A DNA stretch of 64,000 nucleotides from Dehalococcoidia bacterium UBA2979 (GTDB lineage: Bacteria > Chloroflexota > Dehalococcoidia > UBA2979). The number at the start of each line of letters is the position of its first letter. Position 1 is the first letter of the stretch. Both the position numbers and the translations under genes were made by a program. The stretch covers positions 5,047-69,046 of the forward strand of contig DEAP01000041.1 of assembly GCA_002348225.1 (NCBI GenBank), read 5' to 3'. Of this stretch, positions 3,492-30,801 are shown in pieces. The notes beneath the pieces are model-generated. The model was not told the DNA's origin. It ran no database searches and was given only the letters and a program-made list of their open reading frames with translations.

Positions 3492-5417
3492 ATGACGCTC
3501 GTTCGTATACGACACGTTACCATGTCTTTTATGTCAGCATTCAACATTACCTCCACATCTCATCAGGCCAGAGATGGAATCCGGCTGGCTATCGATATTT
3601 ATAGACCGGCTGACAGTTCAGGTGAGCCGCTGCCTGGTCCTTTCCCGACCGTATTGATCAGGACTCCTTATGACCGGAAAGGTACTCGATATCGCCGCGA
3701 TGGAGAGTTCTGGGCACGTAATGGCTATGTTCTCGCCGTGGAAGACTGTAGAGGTCGTTTTGATTCAGAGGGGAACTTCGTACTGCTGGCCAACGAAGGA
3801 CCGGATGGATTCGATGCCATTGAATGGCTTGCCCAGCAATCTTTTTCGAACGGAAGGATCGGTACCTACGGAACTTCTTACTCGGGATGGATTCAAAACG
3901 CTGCTGCGATTGAGAGACCTCCCTCTTTGTCAGCCATGTGGGTCACTCAAAGTGCTTCAAATGGTGCAACGAGTTCGCTCCGGCATAATGGAACTATGGA
4001 ACTTAGATGGCTCACCTGGGCCGTAACTCATGGTGCTGTATCGCCTGAGGCATTGTCTGACCCAGCGATTCAAACAGCTCTCTCCAATAATGGGATAGAC
4101 ATGTATAGCTGGCTGCGTAAATTACCCTGGGGTGAAGGTCCGGAAAATACACCGTTGCATATGCTCCCCGACTATGACAAATGGGCCAAAGATCTCTATT
4201 TGCACTCAGATCTAGATGAATCCGAAGGTGCCTTCTGGGCGCAGTCAGGTCTGAATTTCGAACCTTATTATAATATTTCAGCAAATGTGCCGACTGTTTA
4301 TTGTGGTGGATGGTACGACTCATACACCAGAGCGACCGTCGAGAATTTTCAGGCGCTAGGTGAGATGAAGGACCATCAGTATCTGTTGATGGGACCTTGG
4401 ATACATGGCGGGATGGATTCACAGATATCCGGGTCGGTAGATCTCGGCGATGATGCTAACCCAGCGGTCGGACTAGGGGCGAGCTATATAAATCTTGTTA
4501 AATCGTGGTTCGATCATTGGCTGCCCGAGGAAGCATATCGCTCAACTGAAGACATCGCCCGGGTGAGAACATTCGTTATGGGTGGTGGTTCTGGAAACAA
4601 GACTGCTGCCGGCAAATTACTCCACGGCGGAAGTTGGAGGGAAGATTCGAATTGGCCTCCACAGAGTATTGTCGTTCAGCCTTATTACTTGCACGAAGAT
4701 GGACTTTTGGATCCTCATCCTGCACCCGAAATGAAGTCGTCAACTTCGTTCATATTTAACCCAGAACAGCCCCTTCCAACCATTTCAGCGAATACATCCT
4801 CACTTAACGAAATTGTTTCCACTCCTGACAGGATCAGAGTTCCCACGCCAATAACATTGATGCGGGTACAAGTCATACAAGGGGGGGCTGATCAGGTGAC
4901 TGATGCAACTGTTCTTGGAGCTGAGCCGCCATTTGGGCCGCTTGAGGATCGTGACGACGTCGTAATTTTCCAGACTACGCCACTTGAGAGACCTCAGGAG
5001 GTTACAGGTCCGCTCGAGGTGGAGCTATTTCTTGAGTCCGATGCTCCTGACACGGATCTTTTTGTCATGTTGCAGGATGAATATCCACCATCAGCAGAGT
5101 GGTCTGATGGTTACAAGCTGAATATTGCGGACGGTATATTTCGTGTGCGCTATAGGGAAAGTATGAGCGAGCCTAAATTGATGGATCCAGGAGTCCCAGT
5201 GAAGGTCCGTTTTGACCTCTATCCTACCAGCAATATTTTTGGCACCGGACACAGAATTCGTCTGATGATATCCAGCTCCTCATTTCCTAGATTTGACGTG
5301 AATCCAAACACCGGTGAACCGGTGGGCAGACACACCTCACTTCGTAAGGCAACTAATACAATCCACCATTCGCAAGAATTTCCTTCAAGGATTCTCCTTC
5401 CGATTAAGGATTCTTAG
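3492..5417 (+). CDS. CocE/NonD family hydrolase (X-Pro dipeptidyl-peptidase S15-like alpha/beta hydrolase).
   Basis: At 641 aa, its N-terminal alpha/beta-hydrolase domain has a GxSxG nucleophile (GTSYSGW) and the C-terminal beta-sandwich typical of the CocE/NonD family. The exact start codon is uncertain. Confidence 0.7.
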   Translation: MTLVRIRHVTMSFMSAFNITSTSHQARDGIRLAIDIYRPADSSGEPLPGPFPTVLIRTPYDRKGTRYRRDGEFWARNGYVLAVEDCRGRFDSEGNFVLLANEGPDGFDAIEWLAQQSFSNGRIGTYGTSYSGWIQNAAAIERPPSLSAMWVTQSASNGATSSLRHNGTMELRWLTWAVTHGAVSPEALSDPAIQTALSNNGIDMYSWLRKLPWGEGPENTPLHMLPDYDKWAKDLYLHSDLDESEGAFWAQSGLNFEPYYNISANVPTVYCGGWYDSYTRATVENFQALGEMKDHQYLLMGPWIHGGMDSQISGSVDLGDDANPAVGLGASYINLVKSWFDHWLPEEAYRSTEDIARVRTFVMGGGSGNKTAAGKLLHGGSWREDSNWPPQSIVVQPYYLHEDGLLDPHPAPEMKSSTSFIFNPEQPLPTISANTSSLNEIVSTPDRIRVPTPITLMRVQVIQGGADQVTDATVLGAEPPFGPLEDRDDVVIFQTTPLERPQEVTGPLEVELFLESDAPDTDLFVMLQDEYPPSAEWSDGYKLNIADGIFRVRYRESMSEPKLMDPGVPVKVRFDLYPTSNIFGTGHRIRLMISSSSFPRFDVNPNTGEPVGRHTSLRKATNTIHHSQEFPSRILLPIKDS

Positions 5418-7241: not shown

Positions 7242-8870
7242 TTACCAACTGACTGCTGCTCCATCACCCCTACCATCAGATCCTCCCCATAAAACGTTAG
7301 AATTTCTATCTCTCATAATGATTTGTCCACGTCCGAATAGTCCGAGTCGCCGTGATCCGGTAGCAATATCCATATGGTGCCCTCTCCGGTTCAATTCATG
7401 AATTGTTGGAGCCGGGATACTGTCCTCAATTGAAACAATGCCCCATGGAGGGTTTCGGTAAATAGAAAAACGAGGTTCGTCGAGGGCAGCTTGTGGGTTC
7501 ATGTCGTAATCAATTAAATTGATCATCGTTTGGACGTGCCCCTGTGGCTGATGATACCCACCCATAACACCCATGCTTGCGAAGAGTTCGTTTGTATCGG
7601 CGTGAGTGATGAGTGCTGGAATTATCGTATGGTATGGCCGTTTGTTTGGTTCGAGTTTGTTCGGATGGTCGGGATTAAGTACAAAACCAGAACCTCTATT
7701 CTGAAGCGTAAAACCACATCCCATTGGAACTATTCCTGTTCCAAATCCTCCGTAATTACTGTTTATAAAGGAACAAGCATTTCCTACTCCGTCAACGACG
7801 CTCAAGTAGACGGTGTCAGACACTTGCTCTGGTCCCTCATTTGGTGCAATACAGACAGCTGGATCTAATTCACCCCGAAGCTTCAAAGTGTGTTCGTCAG
7901 AAAGTAGTTCTTCTACCGGGACCTCATGGAAGTCGGGATCGGCGATGTGAGACTTGCCTTCTCGAAAAGCCAGGCGGACAGAGTCAATTAACAGATGTAG
8001 GAGGTCCGGTCCACGACGATCAAATTCCCTAATATCGAACGACTTGAGAATGTTAAGGGCAATAAGTGCTATTAGTCCTTGTCCATTCGGTGGATGTTCC
8101 CAAATTCGATAGTCACGATATTGAGTGGATATCGGATCTGGGAAACTAGACCGATGGGAACTGAGGTCTTCTTCAGTCAACCAACCGTTCAGTGGTTCTA
8201 AAACCTTAACAATATTCTTCCCTGCATAACCTTCGTAGAACGCCTTCGGGCCACCTTCGCCAATCTCTCGGAAAATTCGAGCAAGATTTAGATTCGTCCA
8301 GATTTCACCCGCTCGAGGGGCCCGTCCGTTCAGTAAAACTTCGTCAGCGTGTGGGCTGGCGCCTTTGAGCAGATCTTCGCTATCGACCCATAATTTTGAA
8401 ATTACCGGTGTAACGGGGATTCCGTCCTCAGCCAGTGTGATGGCAGGCTTAAGAACATCGAGGAGTGGCATCGTACCGAACCTGGTAATCGTGTCTGCCC
8501 ACCCCATCGCCGCGCCCGGGACAGTAACGCTATGAGCGGTAGTCGAGACTTCTCCGAAATCCTGAATCCCGAGGCTCTGCATTTCTGCGATTGTCTGAGC
8601 TCCCCCGCTGCGCCCACTGCCGTTTAAGCATCTGATATTTCTGGTATTGCTGTCGTAATATAGGGCGAAGCAGTCTCCACCAATTCCGGTGGAAGTTGGT
8701 TCAACGACATTGAGAGCAGCAGCGGTTGCGACGGCAGCATCTGCAGCGTTCCCACCATTCTGTAGAGTCTGTAGACCGGCCATAGCAGCAAGCGGGTGGC
8801 TTGTTGCTACCATACCTCGAGTTCCTAAGACAGGTGAACGTCGTGACTCGAAGTTCCAATTCTCGTTCAT
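7242..8870 (-). CDS. ggt: Gamma-glutamyltransferase.
   Basis: The N-terminus TSHPLAAMAGLQTLQNGGNAADAAVATAAALNVVEPTSTGIGGDCFALYY is canonical GGT, and the catalytic Thr autoprocessing region is present. The start is taken at the internal ATG 8870 (MNENWNF...), preceded by an AGGAAG RBS, rather than the ORF-track start at 9005. Confidence 0.85.
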   Translation of the reverse strand: MNENWNFESRRSPVLGTRGMVATSHPLAAMAGLQTLQNGGNAADAAVATAAALNVVEPTSTGIGGDCFALYYDSNTRNIRCLNGSGRSGGAQTIAEMQSLGIQDFGEVSTTAHSVTVPGAAMGWADTITRFGTMPLLDVLKPAITLAEDGIPVTPVISKLWVDSEDLLKGASPHADEVLLNGRAPRAGEIWTNLNLARIFREIGEGGPKAFYEGYAGKNIVKVLEPLNGWLTEEDLSSHRSSFPDPISTQYRDYRIWEHPPNGQGLIALIALNILKSFDIREFDRRGPDLLHLLIDSVRLAFREGKSHIADPDFHEVPVEELLSDEHTLKLRGELDPAVCIAPNEGPEQVSDTVYLSVVDGVGNACSFINSNYGGFGTGIVPMGCGFTLQNRGSGFVLNPDHPNKLEPNKRPYHTIIPALITHADTNELFASMGVMGGYHQPQGHVQTMINLIDYDMNPQAALDEPRFSIYRNPPWGIVSIEDSIPAPTIHELNRRGHHMDIATGSRRLGLFGRGQIIMRDRNSNVLWGGSDGRGDGAAVSW

Positions 8871-8916
8871 TAATACATTTTCTTCCTGATATTCTTTGCT
8901 TAAGGATAAGCGGACA

Positions 8917-9117
8917 ATGGAACTAAAGCCTACATACTGGGTGAACGTCGACGCTGAGGTGCAGATCATCCACAGTGGGGATTGCGATCTTGTGCAAGAG
9001 TACACTGGTGCCGAGAAAACTTTTGGCTACTGGATATCATTTGTTGAGAAAAGCATGGCTTTTGCAGAATTCGATGATCTGAGCGAGTGCGTGATGTGTC
9101 TCACTGGGGACCAATAG
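8917..9117 (+). CDS. Hypothetical small Cys-containing protein (66 aa).
   Basis: The ORF MELKPTYWVNVDAEVQIIHSGDCDL...SECVMCLTGDQ has an AAGGAT RBS about 8 nt upstream. It is divergent from ggt and has no recognisable domain. Confidence 0.25.
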   Translation: MELKPTYWVNVDAEVQIIHSGDCDLVQEYTGAEKTFGYWISFVEKSMAFAEFDDLSECVMCLTGDQ

Positions 9118-9118
9118 C

Positions 9119-9667
9119 TTACGAGTTCGGTTCAACTGCCCCAGCAATAATTAGTGTCAAAGTAGCCACATCTATAGGTCCGGCATGTCTCTCCAGTACC
9201 GTGGCTCCATCTGCATCAATGGTACAAATTCGAGGGAATCCTAAGATTCCTAACTCTCGCGCCAACTCTTGATCTTCTTTGTTGGCCACGTCCAGAATGA
9301 CATAATTTATTTGTGATTGAGTGTCGTATCGTAACCCGTCAACTACGGATCGCACCTGTTTGCAGCTCATTCAGCCGACAGCCGAATTGAATACCAGAGT
9401 TGGTAGACCATTTTGTGGAATGAAAGCACCGGTGCGGTCAATTTGCCTGTCGGACATTTTGAAATTTTGTTGAACTAGTACTGCTTTGCCGTCAGATGGG
9501 TAATTACCTGTAGCTATCGCTGACTGCTGATCTGGGGAGCTGCCAGATTGACTGCTTGATCCTTTTTCAATCTTGGAGTTTTCAGCGGCGCATGAGATCA
9601 AAAGGGCTATCATTATCGAAGCTGTCACCGAAGGCAATAATCTTTTCGGTAGTGCAAAGCTGACCAT
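9119..9667 (-). CDS. Thioredoxin-fold lipoprotein, candidate selenoprotein (Sec encoded by in-frame TGA 9371..9373; redox motif U-M-S-C).
   Basis: ORFs 9371..9667 and 9119..9370 are in the same frame, separated only by a TGA. The N-terminal part has a signal peptide and lipobox (LISC). The merged protein follows a complete thioredoxin fold: beta strand PTLVFNSAVG, then U-MSC, then helix KQVRSVVDGL, strand YVILDV, helix ELARELGI, cis-Pro FPRICTIDADG, and strand VLERHAG. The TGA falls exactly at the nucleophilic Cys of CXXC. A downstream hairpin (9330..9353, minus-strand mRNA GCGAUCCGU-AGUUG-ACGGGUUACG) starts 17 nt after the UGA and has G/U in the apical loop, consistent with a bacterial SECIS. 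Confidence 0.55.
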
Positions 9668-9702
9668 ATTTCCCCCTCTAGATCATCCTAGCTCAAGGAA
9701 AA

Positions 9703-11013
9703 TTAGCCGCAAATCCCTCGAACTGTAGCGTGCATGATTTGCATGCCGAGATGTAAGTTTTCGATGGATAGGCGCTCGTCGTGACCATGAACTCTTCCTT
9801 GCTCGCTCGGTCCGGTAAGGAACGGACTGAATCCATATGCGGTAATTCCTTCTCTCCTGAAAACTCTGGAATCGGTGAATCCGGTTGAGACGCCAGGCAG
9901 TATTAGTGCATCTTCCACCAAGTTTTTTGCTTCGCGCATCATAATTTCCCAAAGCTCCGTATTCATAGGTGAGGCTGGGGTTGAAGACTGGAATACCCTT
10001 TCAATCTGAATCCGAGGATCGTCAATGATTTTTGTCAGGCTATCTACAAAGACATCAGGGTCGTAACCCGGTACCAAACGACAGTCAAGAGTGGCTTCAG
10101 CGTCTGACGGAATTACGTTGTGCTTTACTCCTGATCTTAGTGTCGTTAGCGCAATGGAGTTCCGAGTCATAGAGTCAATGCGAGGATTATCAGCAGCTAG
10201 TGCTTTTAGAACGTCGTCGGTGGGTTCGGCTTCAAGAATGCCAGCTTCATGAACAGCTTGAAAATAATTTCTTACTTCTGGCGTGATATCAAATGGTCTG
10301 TCCCAATCCAATATTTTATTGACGGCTCTAACGAGGTGATCTGCAGCATTGTCGCTATGGGGGACTGAGCCGTGTCCAGGAGTGCCTTCCACCGTGAGTT
10401 TCAGCCAGAGCGGCCCTTTTTCCGAGACACCAATGTTGAAAGAATCTCTTTCAACTCCAAGCACTTCGGTGCTACCTCCCCCACCTTCATTGATTACATA
10501 TTCGCACTTGATGAGTTCAGGATGCTCACGAGCAAGAAATTCCACTCCAAAAGCTGACCCAGCCTCTTCATCTGCAACTGCCATAAAGACGAGATCGCGC
10601 TTCAACGGAAGATTATTGCGTTTATGAATTAAGAATGAAACGAGCTCAATGATTCCAGTGCCCTTCATATCCTGAGCTCCTCGGCCCCATATGAAGCCGT
10701 CTCTGATTTCGCCGCCAAGAGGATCAACCGTCCAGTTTTCTATTTCGAAGGGAACGACATCCGTGTGATTGAGAAGTATCAGTGAGTCGCCGCGGCTGCC
10801 ATCTCCTTCAAGAGTGGCCACCAACGTCACCCGGTTGTCACCAGCGTCGTAAAGTTTGAAAGGGATGCCTTCGTTCTCCAGAATATCCCCTAAAAAATCA
10901 CAAGCTATTATTTCATTTCCCGGTGGATTAACTGTGTCTACTTGAATGTACGTTGACAGCCATTCGGTTGCTTGTTCGGTCCACTCATCCCAATCAATAG
11001 TCGGCTCTGCCAT
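9703..11013 (-). CDS. M20 family metallopeptidase (ArgE/DapE/ACY1/CPG2-like).
   Basis: It is 436 aa with the M20 metal-binding motifs LLNHTDVVP and GAQDMKG, and has a dimerisation insert. Confidence 0.8.
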   Translation of the reverse strand: MAEPTIDWDEWTEQATEWLSTYIQVDTVNPPGNEIIACDFLGDILENEGIPFKLYDAGDNRVTLVATLEGDGSRGDSLILLNHTDVVPFEIENWTVDPLGGEIRDGFIWGRGAQDMKGTGIIELVSFLIHKRNNLPLKRDLVFMAVADEEAGSAFGVEFLAREHPELIKCEYVINEGGGGSTEVLGVERDSFNIGVSEKGPLWLKLTVEGTPGHGSVPHSDNAADHLVRAVNKILDWDRPFDITPEVRNYFQAVHEAGILEAEPTDDVLKALAADNPRIDSMTRNSIALTTLRSGVKHNVIPSDAEATLDCRLVPGYDPDVFVDSLTKIIDDPRIQIERVFQSSTPASPMNTELWEIMMREAKNLVEDALILPGVSTGFTDSRVFRREGITAYGFSPFLTGPSEQGRVHGHDERLSIENLHLGMQIMHATVRGICG

Positions 11014-13894: not shown

Positions 13895-14431
13895 TCAGTC
13901 GACGAGCGCATCAATCAGCTGTTCAATGACTTCGTCGGCCTTGTTATGCATTTCATTATCGGTTTGATCCTGCATTGGATGCCGAATAAACACCCGATGA
14001 ACGTCCGGCATTCCTAGTGATTTTGATTGAGCTGCGGCTGCATCCACAAATTCATTAGTTGCTACAAACACGGCGGGTATGCCGTTGCTTTCAAACCAAA
14101 CCGTATCGTGCACACTGCACGTTGTGCAAGATCCTCAGTCAGCGACTGCCTCAATTACAAAATTACACTCGTTCATGATTTTACGCCGTAAATCATATGG
14201 TGCTGGTTTTGCGAACGTTGGTTTCTTATATCTCTTGACATGAACCGACGGCATTTGTTCATGTATTTGTTGCTCCAATCGATCAAGAAATTTGTCACCG
14301 CGTGGTTTTGATATGTCGAGCAGGCCAATAGTGCCCGTTATGTGCTCGGACCGCTTAGCCTGAGACCTACTAATAGGTTCTCTTTCATCAGTAGGGTCGA
14401 GAATTATTGTCGGGTTAACTTCCAATGTCAT
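13895..14431 (-). CDS. UGSC-motif (seleno)protein; in-frame TGA at 14135..14137 read as Sec.
   Basis: ORFs 14135..14515 and 13895..14113 share a frame. Reading through the TGA gives ...EAVAD-U-GSCTTCSVHDTVWFESNG..., i.e. a U-G-S-C motif like that of the described UGSC (seleno)protein family. The start is set at ATG 14431, which has a strong GGAGGA RBS and lies after the upstream gene's stop. A hairpin 13 nt after the UGA (14107..14121, CGUGCA-GUG-UGCACG, GU in the loop) is bSECIS-like. Confidence 0.6.
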
Positions 14432-14460: not shown

Positions 14461-16050
14461 TTAAAGTTGTATTTTCTTGCTGGTGGGCATCGAACCACCT
14501 GTACCGCTGGCCCATCCATCAAAGACAGACGAAAATTTTCCGGCTTTAGAGCCTGCCACAACGATATGGATATTTTCAGTTGAGCGGAATTTTGGTATGA
14601 GTGAATCAAGCTTGGGATCAGAGGGGCCATCGAATATGTTGGGGTCCAGTCCAGCTCCTATTTCGTCATTCCTAAGGAGTTCCCGGGCAGGTCGACTTGA
14701 GATATCTTGAATCCGATCCCGAATTTCTGATTTCGACCAGTTATTAGTGGAAATTGTCTCGACATGTTCTGGGCAAAGTACCAGGATTGTGTCCCCGTAG
14801 TTGTGTGAGTTGGGGTGATGAATTGCTTCCATTTTTACGCCAATTGATCCAACCAGTGATTTGGCATCTCTCGAAGTTTGGTCGATAGCATGTCCGAGTC
14901 CAGTCATGGCAAACGCAGTGACTACTGACTCATTTTTATCAAATCCCCGTTCAACATGTAGAGGAGCCCACGGGCTGATTTCCTCCCACTCCGCAAAACA
15001 TGTTGTATATCGGAGAGGACTACCCAGTGTCGACCGTTCGGTCTCTCCAGGCCGCTGTCCTCCAACATTTCTCAGGACAAGCCGGAGAGCTCGACCGATT
15101 GCGGCATTTGCCCGATTTCCTTGGCCGAGAGCATTGAGGCCCATGTTCATGCCTATTTCATGTCGGATTGGCCCGTTAACTATGAGAACCGGCGTTGCTC
15201 CCATAGTGGTCGCGCCCACACCGTGGGCATTAAATTCTTCAGTGCAAACTGCTTCTACGGCCGCTATAACCACCGGCAAGTATTCTGGTTTGCAACCTGC
15301 CATTACCGAATTGATCGCTATTTTTTCAACGGTTACTGGTGCAAGATTTGGTGGTACCACCGCAACAGTTTCTTGAGGATCTCGCTTAGTGCCTTCTAGT
15401 ATTCTGATTACTCGTTCCGGCGTAGGTGGGATCACCGGTAATCCATCAGTCAGGCCTTGTTCATATAGGAACTCATGAACGTCGTCATGTACTCCTATCT
15501 CCACTCGTCGGGCCCGTATAGGTGATCCTTCAGATTCAGCTTGTAATCGTTCAAAAATGCCCGGCTCCAAAGACTTGGAACCGCATCCAGGTCGTGATTC
15601 GGGATACGAATTCCAATCTACTTCAGGAGGTGTTTGTTCGCTGATGGCCGACATCTTCACATACAGCTCGCGCCAGTCATCTCGTCCGAAGCCGACAAAG
15701 TCAGTCACTGGAGTCCCATCAGGTGAAGCAAGAATGAGAGTGGGAACGGTTTCAATATCGTATGCGAACGAGGTGGTGAGACTGGAGTCATCTAGCAGTG
15801 GCATCATAAGGCCGTATTCTTCTGCTAATACGAGGTCATCTTCTCCATTTTGGGCTAGTGCCACTACATCAATATCTTTTCCGAACACTTCATAGGCCTT
15901 TTGTAGAAGAGGCATAGCGATTCTGGTTGTCGGACAGTCCTCCTTGACGAAACAAAGAAGTGTCGGGCGGCCTGACGGGAAGGAATAGGCGTTCTGAGTT
16001 CGGGTCGCGCCCGCTGTTGGTAGGGAAAAGTTTGGTAAATTATTCATCAC
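14461..16050 (-). CDS. Hypothetical 529-aa protein: N-terminal thioredoxin/peroxiredoxin-like domain fused to a large uncharacterised domain.
   Basis: The N-terminal approximately 140 aa carry a Trx-like pattern (TLLCFVKEDCPTTR...VPTLILASPDG). The C-terminal approximately 380 aa (GLTDGLPVIPPTPERV..., GATTMGATPVLIVNGPIRHE...) match no family I can name. It sits immediately upstream of the UGSC gene in the same operon. Confidence 0.5.
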   Translation of the reverse strand: MMNNLPNFSLPTAGATRTQNAYSFPSGRPTLLCFVKEDCPTTRIAMPLLQKAYEVFGKDIDVVALAQNGEDDLVLAEEYGLMMPLLDDSSLTTSFAYDIETVPTLILASPDGTPVTDFVGFGRDDWRELYVKMSAISEQTPPEVDWNSYPESRPGCGSKSLEPGIFERLQAESEGSPIRARRVEIGVHDDVHEFLYEQGLTDGLPVIPPTPERVIRILEGTKRDPQETVAVVPPNLAPVTVEKIAINSVMAGCKPEYLPVVIAAVEAVCTEEFNAHGVGATTMGATPVLIVNGPIRHEIGMNMGLNALGQGNRANAAIGRALRLVLRNVGGQRPGETERSTLGSPLRYTTCFAEWEEISPWAPLHVERGFDKNESVVTAFAMTGLGHAIDQTSRDAKSLVGSIGVKMEAIHHPNSHNYGDTILVLCPEHVETISTNNWSKSEIRDRIQDISSRPARELLRNDEIGAGLDPNIFDGPSDPKLDSLIPKFRSTENIHIVVAGSKAGKFSSVFDGWASGTGGSMPTSKKIQL

Positions 16051-16086: not shown

Positions 16087-16461
16087 CTATTTTGGTATCC
16101 AGTCTGTTGTGAATACCAATGCTAGGGTCAGTATAGACAAAATAAGTATGAAAGATAGTATGCGCCCTCGATGTCGTTTTCGACTCTTGTGCATTAATTT
16201 CTTTGCAGCACGTACTTGACCCGTTTTCAGCGCAAACCATTCACCTCGAATTCTCGTTTCCTTGAAGGCATTATGTAGTTTGCGCTCAATCATGAGTGCA
16301 TCGTCTGTTTGAATAGACTTCACGATTTCTAATTTAGTTGGCGAGCCAGTTTGCAGATTTCTCATCCGATCCTGCATGTTTGAGGTTTGCCCTATTTTGT
16401 AGAGTTGTTCGGAGCCAATTTTTGGCCCACGGATAAGATACACGAAGCCGTCTTTTTTCAT
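16087..16461 (-). CDS. GIY-YIG nuclease-superfamily domain protein with a C-terminal transmembrane anchor.
   Basis: It has GFVYLIRG...LYKIGQT spacing typical of GIY-YIG (T5orf172-like). It also has a basic region and a hydrophobic C-terminal helix (ILSFILILSILTLALVF). Confidence 0.55.
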   Translation of the reverse strand: MKKDGFVYLIRGPKIGSEQLYKIGQTSNMQDRMRNLQTGSPTKLEIVKSIQTDDALMIERKLHNAFKETRIRGEWFALKTGQVRAAKKLMHKSRKRHRGRILSFILILSILTLALVFTTDWIPK

Positions 16462-30491: not shown

Positions 30492-30607
30492 GGGGTTTTC
30501 TCACTTTCTGAGCGAGATAGTCAACTTTCCTTAAGATTATTTCATGTTTGATGATTATACATATGACTCATCTTTGACAGGGTGCTATTATTCATCACGA
30601 TTAACTT

Positions 30608-30695
30608 TGTCCCGCTGGGGGGGCCGTACGGCTGAGATCCTTGGAATATAGGACTACCCCGAGAACCTGAACTCGGTAATTCGAGCGGAGGAAAG
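30608..30695 (+). promoter_or_regulatory. TPP (THI-box) riboswitch.
   Basis: The sequence CCGCUGGGGGGGCC...GGCUGAGA...ACCCCGAGAACCUGAACUCGGUAAUUCGAGCGGAGGAA matches the conserved TPP aptamer cores (GGGG.GCC, GCUGAGA, ACCC...GAACCUGA.C.GGUAAU.C.GCG.AGG). P1 is CCGCU/AGCGG. It lies 5' of the ykoF-thiXYZ-like operon. Confidence 0.85.
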
Positions 30696-30801
30696 CGAAG
30701 GAAGAGTTGTAGAACTTGTTTCTACTCTGCTCAGATCTCCACGTAATCTCCGCAATTACCAATAGTCTCAGGCTAATGAAGGCAGTTGTTAGGAGAAATT
30801 T

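What the first reader, a model, noticed from the sequence alone, without database searches (positions are those of the whole stretch)
9119..9667. Thioredoxin-fold lipoprotein with an in-frame TGA at the CXXC nucleophile (U-M-S-C): candidate selenoprotein
Two ORFs the track reports separately (9371..9667 and 9119..9370) are in the same frame and separated by one TGA. The upstream half ends in a beta strand (PTLVFNSAVG). The downstream half begins MSCKQVRSVVDGL (helix) and continues with every element of the thioredoxin fold, including the cis-Pro (FPR). The TGA therefore sits exactly where the attacking Cys of CXXC belongs, giving U-x-x-C. A hairpin with an AGUUG apical loop starts 17 nt 3' of the UGA (9330..9353), as expected for a bacterial SECIS. 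A frameshift or pseudogene would not preserve this geometry. The protein is also a predicted lipoprotein (LISC), i.e. an extracytoplasmic Sec-dependent thiol-disulfide oxidoreductase.
Basis: partly seen in the sequence, partly recalled or inferred. Interest (0 to 1): 0.8.

Follow-up and report, generated by a model that had tools for sequence, protein, structure and literature searches.

The report
Selenocysteine thioredoxin-like lipoprotein of marine Chloroflexota
Two neighbouring "hypothetical" ORFs are really one gene for a membrane-anchored thioredoxin-like enzyme whose active-site cysteine is replaced by selenocysteine (encoded by UGA); it is a solid but unsurprising addition to the commonest class of bacterial selenoproteins.

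Summary
The observation and the interpretation both hold. ORFs 9371..9667 and 9119..9370 (minus strand) share a frame and are separated by one TGA.

- **The TGA is conserved.** It sits at the same column in all 62 related loci from public assemblies that carry the split form. The codon there is never TAA or TAG. In most of these loci no start codon follows it.
- **Both halves are translated.** Both are under purifying selection.
- **The active site fits.** Family profiles align the TGA column to the first Cys of the thioredoxin WCGPC motif, even with X placed there.
- **Cys orthologues exist.** Full-length orthologues in the same gene neighbourhood carry TGC or TGT at that column.
- **A hairpin goes with the TGA.** A 7-bp hairpin with a 5-nt NGUNN loop starts 19 nt after the UGA. 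It is the only conserved structure in the gene, and 5 of its 7 pairs show compensatory changes. It is present in TGA forms and absent from Cys forms.
- **The genome probably decodes Sec.** A UGSC-family selenoprotein gene with its own in-frame TGA lies 4.5 kb away.
- **It is a lipoprotein.** Every complete family member has a lipoprotein signal peptide.

The organism is a marine Chloroflexota (Dehalococcoidia). GenBank lists the two halves as separate hypothetical proteins, and no NCBIfam selenoprotein model matches.

Not shown: selA, selB, selD and tRNA-Sec in this genome, selenium incorporation, the substrate. Verdict: supported; a new member of a known kind.

The parts
9119..9667 (-). Single gene for a 181-residue selenoprotein precursor: ATG at 9667..9665, in-frame TGA, TAA stop at 9121..9119. 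Public annotation splits it into two hypothetical proteins.
   Evidence: same frame, one TGA. (conserved in close relatives). (GenBank MBK33463.1 + MBK33462.1, 'hypothetical protein', Chloroflexi bacterium).
9672..9678 (-). Shine-Dalgarno-like GAGGGGG, 4 nt upstream of the ATG. The gene starts 35 nt after the stop of the M20 peptidase gene, so co-transcription is likely.
   Evidence: Read directly. No promoter-like or terminator-like site lies between the two genes. The co-transcription is an inference.
9590..9667 (-). Lipoprotein signal peptide (residues 1-26) ending in the lipobox L-I-S-C. Cys26 is the predicted lipidated first residue of the mature protein.
   Evidence: every family member with a complete N-terminus has a PROSITE-type lipobox 54-90 residues before the Sec; the Cys orthologues have one too (LVAC, LAAC).
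9371..9373 (-). TGA codon read as selenocysteine (residue 99), at the position of the attacking Cys of the CxxC motif (U-M-S-C).
   Evidence: TGA in 59/59 loci, plus L044, L056 and L061. TGC/TGT in orthologues. The column aligns to the first Cys of WCGPC.
9362..9364 (-). TGC, Cys102: the resolving cysteine of the U-x-x-C motif.
   Evidence: Invariant in alignments A2 and A4. Aligns to the second Cys of WCGPC.
9330..9354 (-). SECIS-like hairpin inside the coding sequence. Core 7-bp stem 9351..9345 / 9339..9333, apical loop AGUUG 9344..9340, two weaker outer pairs. The stem starts 19 nt after the UGA and the loop 26 nt after it.
   Evidence: RNAalifold finds it de novo, with 5 of 7 pairs showing double changes. 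92% of cells are paired against 19-43% when partners are slid, and 0/500 shuffles reach the observed value. It is the only consensus structure between -60 and +123. It is absent from the Cys forms.
9122..9415 (-). Thioredoxin-fold domain (about residues 85-181) spanning the TGA, with the cis-Pro at P145 (9233..9235).
   Evidence: Pfam Thioredoxin_2 matches residues 85-167, E = 7e-6, just under the gathering score. The family profile matches PDB thioredoxins at E = 3e-9 to 1e-5. P145 is invariant.
13895..14431 (-). Second selenoprotein gene of the window (UGSC family) with an in-frame TGA at 14135..14137. It serves here as evidence that this genome decodes UGA as Sec.
   Evidence: The sequence reads ...AVAD-TGA-GGA-TCT-TGC, i.e. 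U-G-S-C. NCBIfam NF041046 'UGSC family (seleno)protein' scores 170 bits against a cutoff of 125. Pfam UGSC E = 7e-49. It is split into 98 + 72 aa ORFs on all related contigs.

Best explanation
The locus 9119..9667 (minus strand) is one gene for a selenocysteine-containing thioredoxin-fold lipoprotein.

**How it is made (mostly inferred).** The ribosome reaches UGA at codon 99. A hairpin 19 nt downstream (7 bp, loop N-G-U-N-N) acts as a bacterial SECIS. It recruits SelB carrying Sec-tRNA(Sec), so Sec is inserted and translation continues into the rest of the thioredoxin fold. The precursor is exported by its signal peptide and lipidated on Cys26. It then sits on the outer face of the cytoplasmic membrane.

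**How it works (inferred from the family).** Sec99 takes the place of the attacking Cys of the CxxC motif. It attacks a substrate disulfide, or a sulfenic or oxidised thiol, to form a selenenylsulfide. Cys102 resolves this intermediate. The enzyme is then recycled, most likely by a CcdA/DsbD-type membrane electron carrier, as in TlpA, ResA and CcmG.

**What is shown.**
- One reading frame with a conserved TGA.
- Sec/Cys orthologue pairs.
- A hairpin that travels with the TGA.
- The thioredoxin fold and the active-site register.
- A conserved lipobox.

**What is inferred.** SelB-dependent insertion, export, the direction of the redox reaction (probably reducing), the electron donor and the substrate.
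For: 1. **Conserved TGA.** It is at the identical column in 59 loci, plus L044 and L056 and L061. These span 33-100% protein identity and low-GC to high-GC genomes. The codon is never TAA or TAG.
2. **No restart codon.** The codon after TGA is ATG only in the window's clade and one other. Elsewhere it is CTC, CTG, CCC or CCG, so reinitiation cannot explain the second half.
3. **Purifying selection.** dN/dS is 0.17 upstream and 0.38 downstream of the TGA, over 312 pairs that are not independent.
4. **Fold.** Pfam Thioredoxin/Thioredoxin_2 match across the TGA. The family profile hits PDB thioredoxins at E down to 3e-9. The TGA column aligns to the first Cys of WCGPC and the invariant Pro to the cis-Pro. 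The same register is found with X at the Sec position.
5. **Cys orthologues.** 26 full-length lipoproteins carry W-C-x-x-C. Six distinct sequences were checked at DNA level and carry TGC or TGT. The two on long contigs (L062, L065) lie among the same neighbours: DUF1932, ABM, M20 peptidase, EamA, CoA-transferase.
6. **Hairpin.** RNAalifold predicts it de novo, with 5 of 7 pairs showing compensatory changes. 92% of cells are paired against 19-43% when partners are slid, and 0/500 shuffles reach the observed value. It is the only consensus structure from -60 to +123.
7. **Hairpin tracks the TGA.** Some compensations cost an amino-acid change (GGG to AGG, Gly to Arg, paired with a silent CCC to CCT; GTC to GGC with CAC to GCC), so the constraint is on the RNA. 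Of 37 distinct TGA forms, 35 keep 6-7 of the 7 pairs. The 6 distinct Cys forms keep 2-4, with positive forced-fold energy.
8. **Sec use in this genome.** A curated-family selenoprotein gene (UGSC, NF041046) with its own in-frame TGA lies 4.5 kb away.
9. **TGA is otherwise a stop.** It ends 8 of 53 long ORFs in the window, so there is no global reassignment.
10. **Lipobox.** It is present in every complete family member.
11. **Literature.** Some Chloroflexi are known to have the Sec trait and tRNA-Sec (PMC1794560, PMC5389517).
Against: - No selA, selB, selD or tRNA-Sec was found in the window or in any fetched locus. The rest of the genome could not be searched.
- The window's own hairpin is weak (-7.4 kcal/mol, three G-U pairs) and on its own is no better than shuffled sequence.
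- No Rfam family matches.
- The window protein alone is just below the Pfam gathering scores (26.7 against 27). It has G rather than W before the Sec.
- The single-sequence AlphaFold model was too poor to use (pLDDT 49).
- No CcdA/DsbD-type partner is in the neighbourhood.
- The substrate and the direction of the reaction are unknown.
- There is no experimental evidence for selenium incorporation.
Confidence: 0.88

Rival explanations
1. Two separate small genes coupled by a UGA-AUG stop-start junction. The ribosome terminates at UGA and reinitiates at the adjacent AUG, giving a 98-aa lipoprotein and an 83-aa cytoplasmic protein.
For: In the window the TGA is followed directly by ATG. Gene callers annotate two ORFs.
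Against: - In most homologues the codon after TGA is CTC, CTG, CCC or CCG, and there is no start codon for at least 8 codons.
- One thioredoxin domain spans the junction. Neither half is a fold on its own: the upstream half has no Pfam match and the downstream half scores lower than the merged protein.
- Cys orthologues are single uninterrupted proteins.
Confidence: 0.02
2. The gene is a pseudogene, or the TGA is a sequencing or assembly error, in an ordinary Cys-thioredoxin gene.
For: A single TGC-to-TGA change would produce this picture in one genome.
Against: - The TGA is present in 62 independently assembled loci from many samples and divergent lineages.
- The half downstream of the TGA is under purifying selection.
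- A co-varying hairpin accompanies the TGA.
Confidence: 0.01
3. The UGA is read through, but not as selenocysteine. Either a near-cognate or suppressor tRNA (Trp, Cys or Gly) reads it, with the hairpin acting as a read-through stimulator, or there is a lineage-specific reassignment of UGA.
For: - The Sec machinery was not observed.
- Hairpins downstream of stop codons can stimulate read-through in other systems (general knowledge).
- One database translation shows W at this position.
Against: - The W is an artefact of a code-4 gene call. The DNA has TGA and the product does not translate under table 11.
- TGA terminates 8 of 53 long ORFs here.
- The position is the catalytic nucleophile, where only Cys or Sec would work, and orthologues have Cys.
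- The hairpin's spacing and its small G-containing loop fit the bacterial SECIS description (PMC1088965).
- A curated selenoprotein family member with TGA is in the same window.
Confidence: 0.06
4. It is a selenoprotein, but it works as an oxidant (DsbA-like disulfide-forming enzyme) or a peroxide or selenium-handling protein, rather than as a TlpA/CcmG-like reductant.
For: - Most family members have Pro as the first x (U-P-F-C, C-P-T-C). From memory, this is also seen in the oxidising DsbA (CPHC) and in glutaredoxins (CPYC/CPFC).
- No CcdA/DsbD partner is nearby.
Against: - The only family-specific profile similarity beyond generic thioredoxin is a weak DsbE/CcmG hit.
- PGAP names a Cys orthologue 'TlpA family protein disulfide reductase'.
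- From memory, WCPTC is the E. coli CcmG motif.
- The domain has no DsbA-type helical insertion: only 83 residues follow the Sec.

None of this is decisive.
Confidence: 0.2

Closest known systems
Trx-like UxxC selenoproteins predicted from marine metagenomes (Zhang & Gladyshev: 'Thioredoxin', 'Trx-like 1/2/3', 'thiol:disulfide interchange protein', 'thiol-disulfide isomerase-like'; PMC1088965, PMC2398784, PMC9312934)
   Same: Thioredoxin fold. Sec at the first position of the redox motif (UxxC). Cys-containing homologues exist. A bacterial SECIS-like hairpin with a small G-containing apical loop lies just after the UGA. Marine origin.
   Different: I could not establish whether this family is inside one of those broad bins. 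It matches none of the selenoprotein-specific NCBIfam models. Both halves are 'hypothetical protein' in GenBank. It is a lipoprotein and appears restricted to Chloroflexota/Dehalococcoidia where names are available.
TlpA / ResA / CcmG (DsbE) extracytoplasmic thiol-disulfide reductases
   Same: Membrane-anchored, extracytoplasmic thioredoxin-fold proteins with a W-C-x-x-C motif preceded by a G-K-P-x-L-V-x-F strand. A Cys orthologue is named 'TlpA family protein disulfide reductase' by PGAP. Cys forms carry WCPTC, which from memory is the CcmG motif.
   Different: The DsbE model scores only 15.9 bits against a cutoff of 123. The domain after the motif is as short as in classical thioredoxin (83 residues). 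No ccm, res, sco or ccdA genes are nearby. The nucleophile is Sec.
Classical thioredoxin (TrxA, PF00085)
   Same: Best-scoring solved structures. The WCGPC and cis-Pro registers align.
   Different: This protein has a lipoprotein signal and a roughly 60-residue low-complexity linker, so it is extracytoplasmic. The x-x dipeptide is P-F, P-T, M-S or L-T rather than G-P. TIGR01068 scores 21-27 bits against a cutoff of 96.8.
UGSC-family selenoprotein (NF041046 / PF24696), the neighbour in this window
   Same: A U-x-x-C selenoprotein with an in-frame TGA in the same genome. It is also split into two ORFs by gene callers. Its apical loop also contains G-U.
   Different: An unrelated family with no profile cross-match. 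It has no signal peptide. Its hairpin lies closer to the UGA.

Membership tests
Bacterial selenoprotein gene (Sec-encoding UGA) | In-frame UGA conserved at the homologous codon across divergent homologues | tested here: met
   TGA in 59/59 loci, plus L044, L056 and L061. No TAA or TAG.
Bacterial selenoprotein gene (Sec-encoding UGA) | Cys in homologues at the column of the UGA (Sec/Cys pair) | tested here: met
   26 full-length homologues with W-C-x-x-C. TGC/TGT confirmed in 6 distinct DNA sequences; the two on long contigs share the window's neighbours.
Bacterial selenoprotein gene (Sec-encoding UGA) | SECIS: stem-loop just 3' of the UGA with a small apical loop containing G | tested here: met
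   7-bp stem, 5-nt loop N-G-U-N-N, G31 and U32 invariant, loop 26 nt after the UGA. Covariation. Only structure in the region. Absent from Cys forms. No Rfam model matched. bSECISearch itself was not run.
Bacterial selenoprotein gene (Sec-encoding UGA) | selA, selB, selD and tRNA-Sec in the same genome | not testable with these tools
   None found in the window or in the fetched loci. Indirect support: a UGSC selenoprotein gene with TGA in the window, and the Sec trait is known in Chloroflexi (PMC1794560, PMC5389517).
Bacterial selenoprotein gene (Sec-encoding UGA) | Selenium shown in the protein (75Se labelling, mass spectrometry) | not testable with these tools
   Experimental.
Thioredoxin superfamily (PF00085 / PF13098) | Profile match at or above the curated threshold | tested here: inconclusive
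   Window protein: Thioredoxin_2 26.7 bits against 27, Thioredoxin 20.4 against 23.5. Homologue L016 passes PF00085, 25.6 against 23.5. Cys orthologues carry precomputed PF00085. Family profile against PDB thioredoxins: E = 3e-9.
Thioredoxin superfamily (PF00085 / PF13098) | C/U-x-x-C at the start of helix 1, and a cis-Pro loop | tested here: met
   Alignment registers. C102 and P145 are invariant. Three-dimensional confirmation failed: AF2 pLDDT 49.
TlpA / ResA / CcmG (DsbE) family | Match to the family model (TIGR00385 DsbE, NF002854 ResA) | tested here: not met
   DsbE scores 15.9 bits against a cutoff of 123, for homologue L016 only. No hit for the window protein.
TlpA / ResA / CcmG (DsbE) family | Extracytoplasmic location through a membrane anchor or lipid anchor | tested here: met
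   Conserved signal peptide plus lipobox. This is a pattern-based prediction only.
TlpA / ResA / CcmG (DsbE) family | Genomic or functional link to CcdA/DsbD and to cytochrome c, CuA or Msr clients | tested here: not met
   The neighbours are an M20 peptidase, a gamma-glutamyltransferase, DUF1932, EamA and a CoA-transferase. There is no ccdA, ccm, res or sco gene.
Curated Trx-like selenoprotein families in NCBIfam (e.g. SaoT NF040730, HUIPC-motif NF047660, VPGUxxT NF041383) | Match to the family model | tested here: not met
   Scanning the window protein and L016 against NCBIfam at E <= 0.01 returned only generic thioredoxin, plus DsbE for L016.
Bacterial lipoprotein | n-region, h-region and lipobox [LVI..][..][AGS]C | tested here: met
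   MVSFALPKRLLPSVTASIMIALL-ISC in the window. The PROSITE-style pattern is found in all complete members. Lgt and LspA in the genome were not tested.

The most novel reading that the evidence does not exclude
This is a selenoprotein family that earlier catalogues and current annotation pipelines have not recognised. On this reading:
- It is a surface-exposed, lipid-anchored Sec enzyme specific to Dehalococcoidia (including marine SAR202-type Chloroflexota).
- Sec forms outnumber Cys forms: about 94 fragments against 26 full-length proteins among the best 120 clusters.
- Sec and Cys have been exchanged several times, each time with gain or loss of the in-frame SECIS.
- Its conserved linkage to an M20 peptidase, and in part to a gamma-glutamyltransferase, would point to a selenium-dependent step in handling extracellular thiol or disulfide peptides, such as glutathione or Cys-Gly, in the oxic ocean.
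Probability: 0.3. Interest if true: 0.55.

Novelty: new member of a known kind. Interest (0 to 1): 0.4.

Why it matters
- **Annotation.** It corrects a systematic error. One gene is split into two "hypothetical proteins" on hundreds of public contigs, and at least once it was mistranslated with Trp.
- **Selenoproteome.** It adds a well-supported selenoprotein to marine Chloroflexota, an abundant group in the deep ocean. Together with the UGSC neighbour, it shows that these organisms invest in selenium.
- **Teaching case for SECIS.** Orthologues with TGA carry a co-varying hairpin. Orthologues with TGC lack it, even where the encoded peptide is nearly the same. That makes the family a clean natural experiment on how a SECIS is gained or lost inside a coding sequence.
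- **Limits.** It does not change what is known about how selenoproteins work.

Tried and rejected
- **First protein search.** The word-indexed search with the window's merged protein found nothing. The window protein is too divergent, and only the family profile worked.
- It could not be submitted to the representative search or the structure tools, because of the internal stop or the non-window sequence. The C-terminal half alone gave two true relatives.
- **A wrong turn, corrected.** The metagenome scan returned only TGA forms. For a while I took this to mean a Sec-only family. One search showed this was wrong, and the Cys forms were then checked at DNA level. Why the scan missed them is unclear. 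Possible reasons are the degenerate patterns, the caps, or which collections hold them.
- **Rfam.** Nothing at gathering threshold or at E <= 10 around the hairpin.
- **Single-sequence folding.** z-scores were not significant for this hairpin or for the UGSC one. I dropped this line of evidence in favour of covariation.
- **AlphaFold2.** The model of P0017 (TGA read as W) had pLDDT 49. I did not run a fold search on it.
- **Sec machinery.** No tRNA in the window or in 60 loci. Ten size-matched window ORFs are not SelA, SelB or SelD.
- **Redox partner.** No CcdA/DsbD-type gene among the neighbours.
- **Promoters and terminators.** The scan was uninformative.
- **Literature.** No paper mentions both selenoproteins and SAR202.
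Full report
**1. The observation**

The minus strand reads ...AAT TCG GCT GTC GGC TGA ATG AGC TGC AAA CAG GTG CGA TCC GTA GTT GAC GGG TTA CGA.... ORF 9371..9667 (98 aa) and ORF 9119..9370 (83 aa) share a frame, with one TGA (9373..9371) between them.

I scanned the window for TGA codons flanked by at least 40 open codons on both sides. This gave 31 cases. Twenty-nine lie in alternative frames of long ORFs. The other two are this locus and a second one at 14135..14137.

The core stem is 9351..9345 / 9339..9333 with loop AGUUG, and with two outer pairs it spans 9354..9330. Taken alone it folds no better than shuffled sequence (z about -0.5 to -0.7). A single sequence therefore proves nothing here.

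**2. Organism and distribution**

Both halves occur, always adjacent, on many marine metagenome contigs (Tara Oceans and others) and on a MAG contig, GCA_002720365.1.

- Species-level relatives are titled "Chloroflexota bacterium" and "uncultured Dehalococcoidaceae bacterium".
- GenBank lists the two halves as separate hypothetical proteins, MBK33463.1 and MBK33462.1, of a Chloroflexi bacterium.
- A distant homologue comes from a Dehalococcoidia MAG.

**3. The TGA is conserved and both halves are translated**

- A full HMMER search with the C-terminal half found two true relatives. Both are 74-aa ORFs that start just after the motif.
- Their contigs carry TGA at the same column. The contexts are ...NSAVG-TGA-CTC-ACC-TGC (U-L-T-C) and ...DAIW-TGA-CCG-TTC-TGC (W-U-P-F-C).
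- A metagenome scan used two peptide patterns that lie upstream of the site. It returned 43 more loci.
- In total, 59 loci matched the motif, and all 59 have TGA. The two that my pattern missed, L044 and L056, also have TGA.
- A MGnify protein showing W at this position is a code-4 translation of TGA.
- In most lineages the next codon is not a start codon, so termination followed by reinitiation is excluded.
- Nei-Gojobori estimates over 312 sequence pairs (not independent) give dN/dS of 0.17 for the 22 codons before the TGA and 0.38 for the 48 codons after it.
- TGA is an ordinary stop in this window, ending 8 of 53 long ORFs.

**4. Fold and active site**

- With C substituted for the stop, the merged window protein matches Pfam Thioredoxin_2 over residues 85-167, across the TGA. 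E = 7e-6 and 26.7 bits, just under the cutoff of 27.
- The high-GC homologue passes the PF00085 threshold.
- A profile of 23 family members hits 185 solved thioredoxin-fold chains, with E down to 3e-9. The TGA column lies on the first Cys of WCGPC, C102 on the second, and the invariant Pro (P145, F-P-R) on the cis-Pro.
- I repeated the search with X instead of C at the Sec column. The register was the same, so my substitution did not cause it.
- A single-sequence AlphaFold model was too uncertain to use (pLDDT 49).

**5. Cys orthologues**

A profile search of the 5.8-billion-cluster protein collection gave 439 hits. Of the best 120:

- 26 are full-length proteins of 150-210 aa. All carry a lipoprotein signal and W-C-x-x-C. 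One is named [quoted passage not shown] by NCBI.
- The other 94 or so are 72-85-aa fragments. These are the C-terminal halves of TGA forms.

Six distinct Cys-form DNA sequences carry TGC or TGT. The two on long contigs (L062, L065) sit among the same neighbours as the window gene: DUF1932/NAD-binding protein, ABM, M20 peptidase, EamA transporter and family III CoA-transferase. They are orthologues.

A rough NJ tree places Cys forms in at least three positions among Sec forms (no support values). This suggests repeated Sec/Cys exchange. The window's low-GC marine clade is uniformly Sec.

**6. The hairpin**

I aligned 34 distinct sequences from the UGA to +63.

- RNAalifold predicts one 7-bp helix (positions 23-29 with 35-41) and a 5-nt loop. 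Five of the seven pairs keep pairing through changes on both sides.
- Counting pairs on my stated structure, 92% of cells are paired, against 19-43% when the 3' partners are slid by 1-3 columns. No shuffle out of 500 reached the observed paired fraction or covariation score.
- Over -60..+123 in 43 distinct sequences, this is the only consensus structure. It scores -9.15 kcal/mol, against 0 to -1.45 elsewhere.
- Loop positions G31 and U32 are invariant. They are also the first two bases of a conserved Val codon, so this point is weaker.

Several compensations show that the constraint is on the RNA rather than on the protein:

| 5' side | 3' side | Pair change |
|---|---|---|
| GUC to AUC (Val to Ile) | CAC to CAU (silent) | G-C to A-U |
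| CCC to CCU (silent) | GGG to AGG (Gly to Arg) | C-G to U-A |
| GUC to GGC | CAC to GCC | U-A to G-C |

The decisive control is the comparison of TGA forms with Cys forms.

| Form | Distinct sequences | Pairs kept (of 7) | Energy of the forced hairpin |
|---|---|---|---|
| TGA | 37 | 7 in 28, 6 in 7, 4 in 2 | mean -7.8 kcal/mol |
| Cys | 6 | 2-4 | +2.7 to +12 kcal/mol |

The two TGA forms with 4 of 7 pairs use a bulged variant. The Cys-form set includes L064, whose peptide (RPVVHSL) is almost the same as in the Sec forms (RPVVHGL).

The element starts 19 nt after the UGA, and the loop starts 26 nt after it. It has a small apical loop containing G, as described for bacterial SECIS elements (PMC1088965). 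From memory, the bSECISearch model allows 16-37 nt between the UGA and the loop. No Rfam family matched.

**7. Does the organism decode Sec?**

- The window has no tRNA gene.
- Ten ORFs of the right size are not SelA, SelB or SelD.
- The fetched loci hold no tRNA.
- The whole genome could not be searched.

There is indirect support. At 13895..14431 (minus strand) lies a gene whose product, read through a TGA at 14135..14137, is ...EAVAD-U-G-S-C-TTC.... It scores 170 bits against NCBIfam NF041046 "UGSC family (seleno)protein" (cutoff 125) and E = 7e-49 against Pfam UGSC. It is split in the same way on all related contigs. Some Chloroflexi are reported to have selenoproteins and tRNA-Sec (PMC1794560, PMC5389517).

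**8. Lipoprotein**

The N-terminus MVSFALPKRLLPSVTASIMIALL-ISC has a charged n-region, a hydrophobic core and a lipobox. Every family member with a complete N-terminus, Sec or Cys, has a lipobox 54-90 residues before the active site. A low-complexity linker follows it. Export and lipidation are predictions from pattern only.

**9. Mechanism and function**

The best-supported reading is a lipid-anchored, extracytoplasmic thiol/selenol-disulfide oxidoreductase. Sec99 is the attacking nucleophile and Cys102 the resolving residue.

I favour a reducing, TlpA/CcmG-like role, with low confidence, for these reasons:

- The G-K-P-T-L-V-F strand lies before the motif.
- There is a weak DsbE hit.
- PGAP gives a TlpA name to a Cys orthologue.
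- Cys forms carry WCPTC, which from memory is the CcmG motif.

The family fails the DsbE and ResA model thresholds, and no ccdA, ccm, res or sco genes are nearby. It should therefore not be filed as a member of those families.

A homologue of the adjacent M20 peptidase (56-68% identical) is linked to the gene in many distant loci, although the orientation differs. A gamma-glutamyltransferase is linked in some. Both neighbours seem to lack signal peptides. Any link to glutathione or Cys-Gly disulfide metabolism is speculation.

**10. Comparison with what is known, and novelty**

UxxC thioredoxin-fold proteins are the most common class of predicted bacterial selenoproteins, especially in marine metagenomes (PMC1088965, PMC2398784, PMC9312934, PMC13188914). 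This gene works like them and belongs to that kind.

It matches no selenoprotein-specific NCBIfam model and is unannotated in GenBank. I could not determine whether it is hidden in the broad "Trx-like" bins of earlier catalogues.

I rate it a new member of a known kind, with interest about 0.4. It is a clean true positive with unusually clear comparative support, but it would not surprise a specialist.

Noticed in passing
window 13895..14431 (minus strand); TGA at 14135..14137: A second selenoprotein gene of the UGSC family (NF041046, 170 bits) with an in-frame TGA at the U of U-G-S-C. Gene callers split it into 98 + 72 aa ORFs on all related contigs. A hairpin with apical loop GUGCA follows the TGA, but it is not significant on its own.
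   Followed up: partly
window 14461..16050 (minus strand): A 529-aa protein directly upstream of the UGSC gene. It has an N-terminal AhpC/TSA or ResA-like thioredoxin-fold domain (residues about 4-120) fused to about 400 residues with no Pfam match. The pairing is conserved on related contigs and may be a functional partner of the UGSC selenoprotein.
   Followed up: no
window 9703..11013 (M20 peptidase) and 7242..8870 (gamma-glutamyltransferase); loci L029-L058, L062, L065: An M20 peptidase homologue (56-68% identity) stays next to the Sec or Cys thioredoxin lipoprotein gene across distant lineages, although its position and orientation change (upstream and co-directional here, downstream and convergent elsewhere). 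GGT is linked in the window clade, in L016 and in L035. This suggests functional coupling of unknown nature.
   Followed up: partly
window 8896..9117 (plus strand): A small ORF (73 aa; 66-73 aa in relatives), convergent with the selenoprotein gene. It is conserved at 34-39% identity in the next clade (L015, L022-L026) and has no Pfam match.
   Followed up: no
window 30607..30710 (plus strand): A TPP riboswitch (RF00059, 63.9 bits). It was the only Rfam hit in the window at gathering threshold.
   Followed up: no
window 16087..16461 (minus strand); compare L001 with L007-L010: A T5orf172/MUG113-domain ORF (124 aa) is present between the short-chain dehydrogenase genes and the AhpC/TSA gene in the window and some strains. 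It is absent from, or shortened in, other near-identical contigs (L001, L002), which suggests a small mobile or variable insert.
   Followed up: no
window 3492..5417; L001 13954..15420, L003 11236..12702: The 641-aa S15/PepX peptidase gene of the window is replaced in some closely related strains by a 116-aa PepX_C remnant plus two small ORFs. This is strain-level gene decay or rearrangement.
   Followed up: no
whole window (53 long ORFs): TGA is the least used stop codon (8 TGA, 23 TAG, 22 TAA) at 47.7% GC.
   Followed up: no
L061 (ENA ERZ27286524 k119_817092), protein P0017: A public MGnify protein reads the Sec TGA as Trp (…AVGWMSCK…). The gene was evidently called with genetic code 4 on a short contig. 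Database artefacts of this kind can hide or mislabel selenoproteins.
   Followed up: yes
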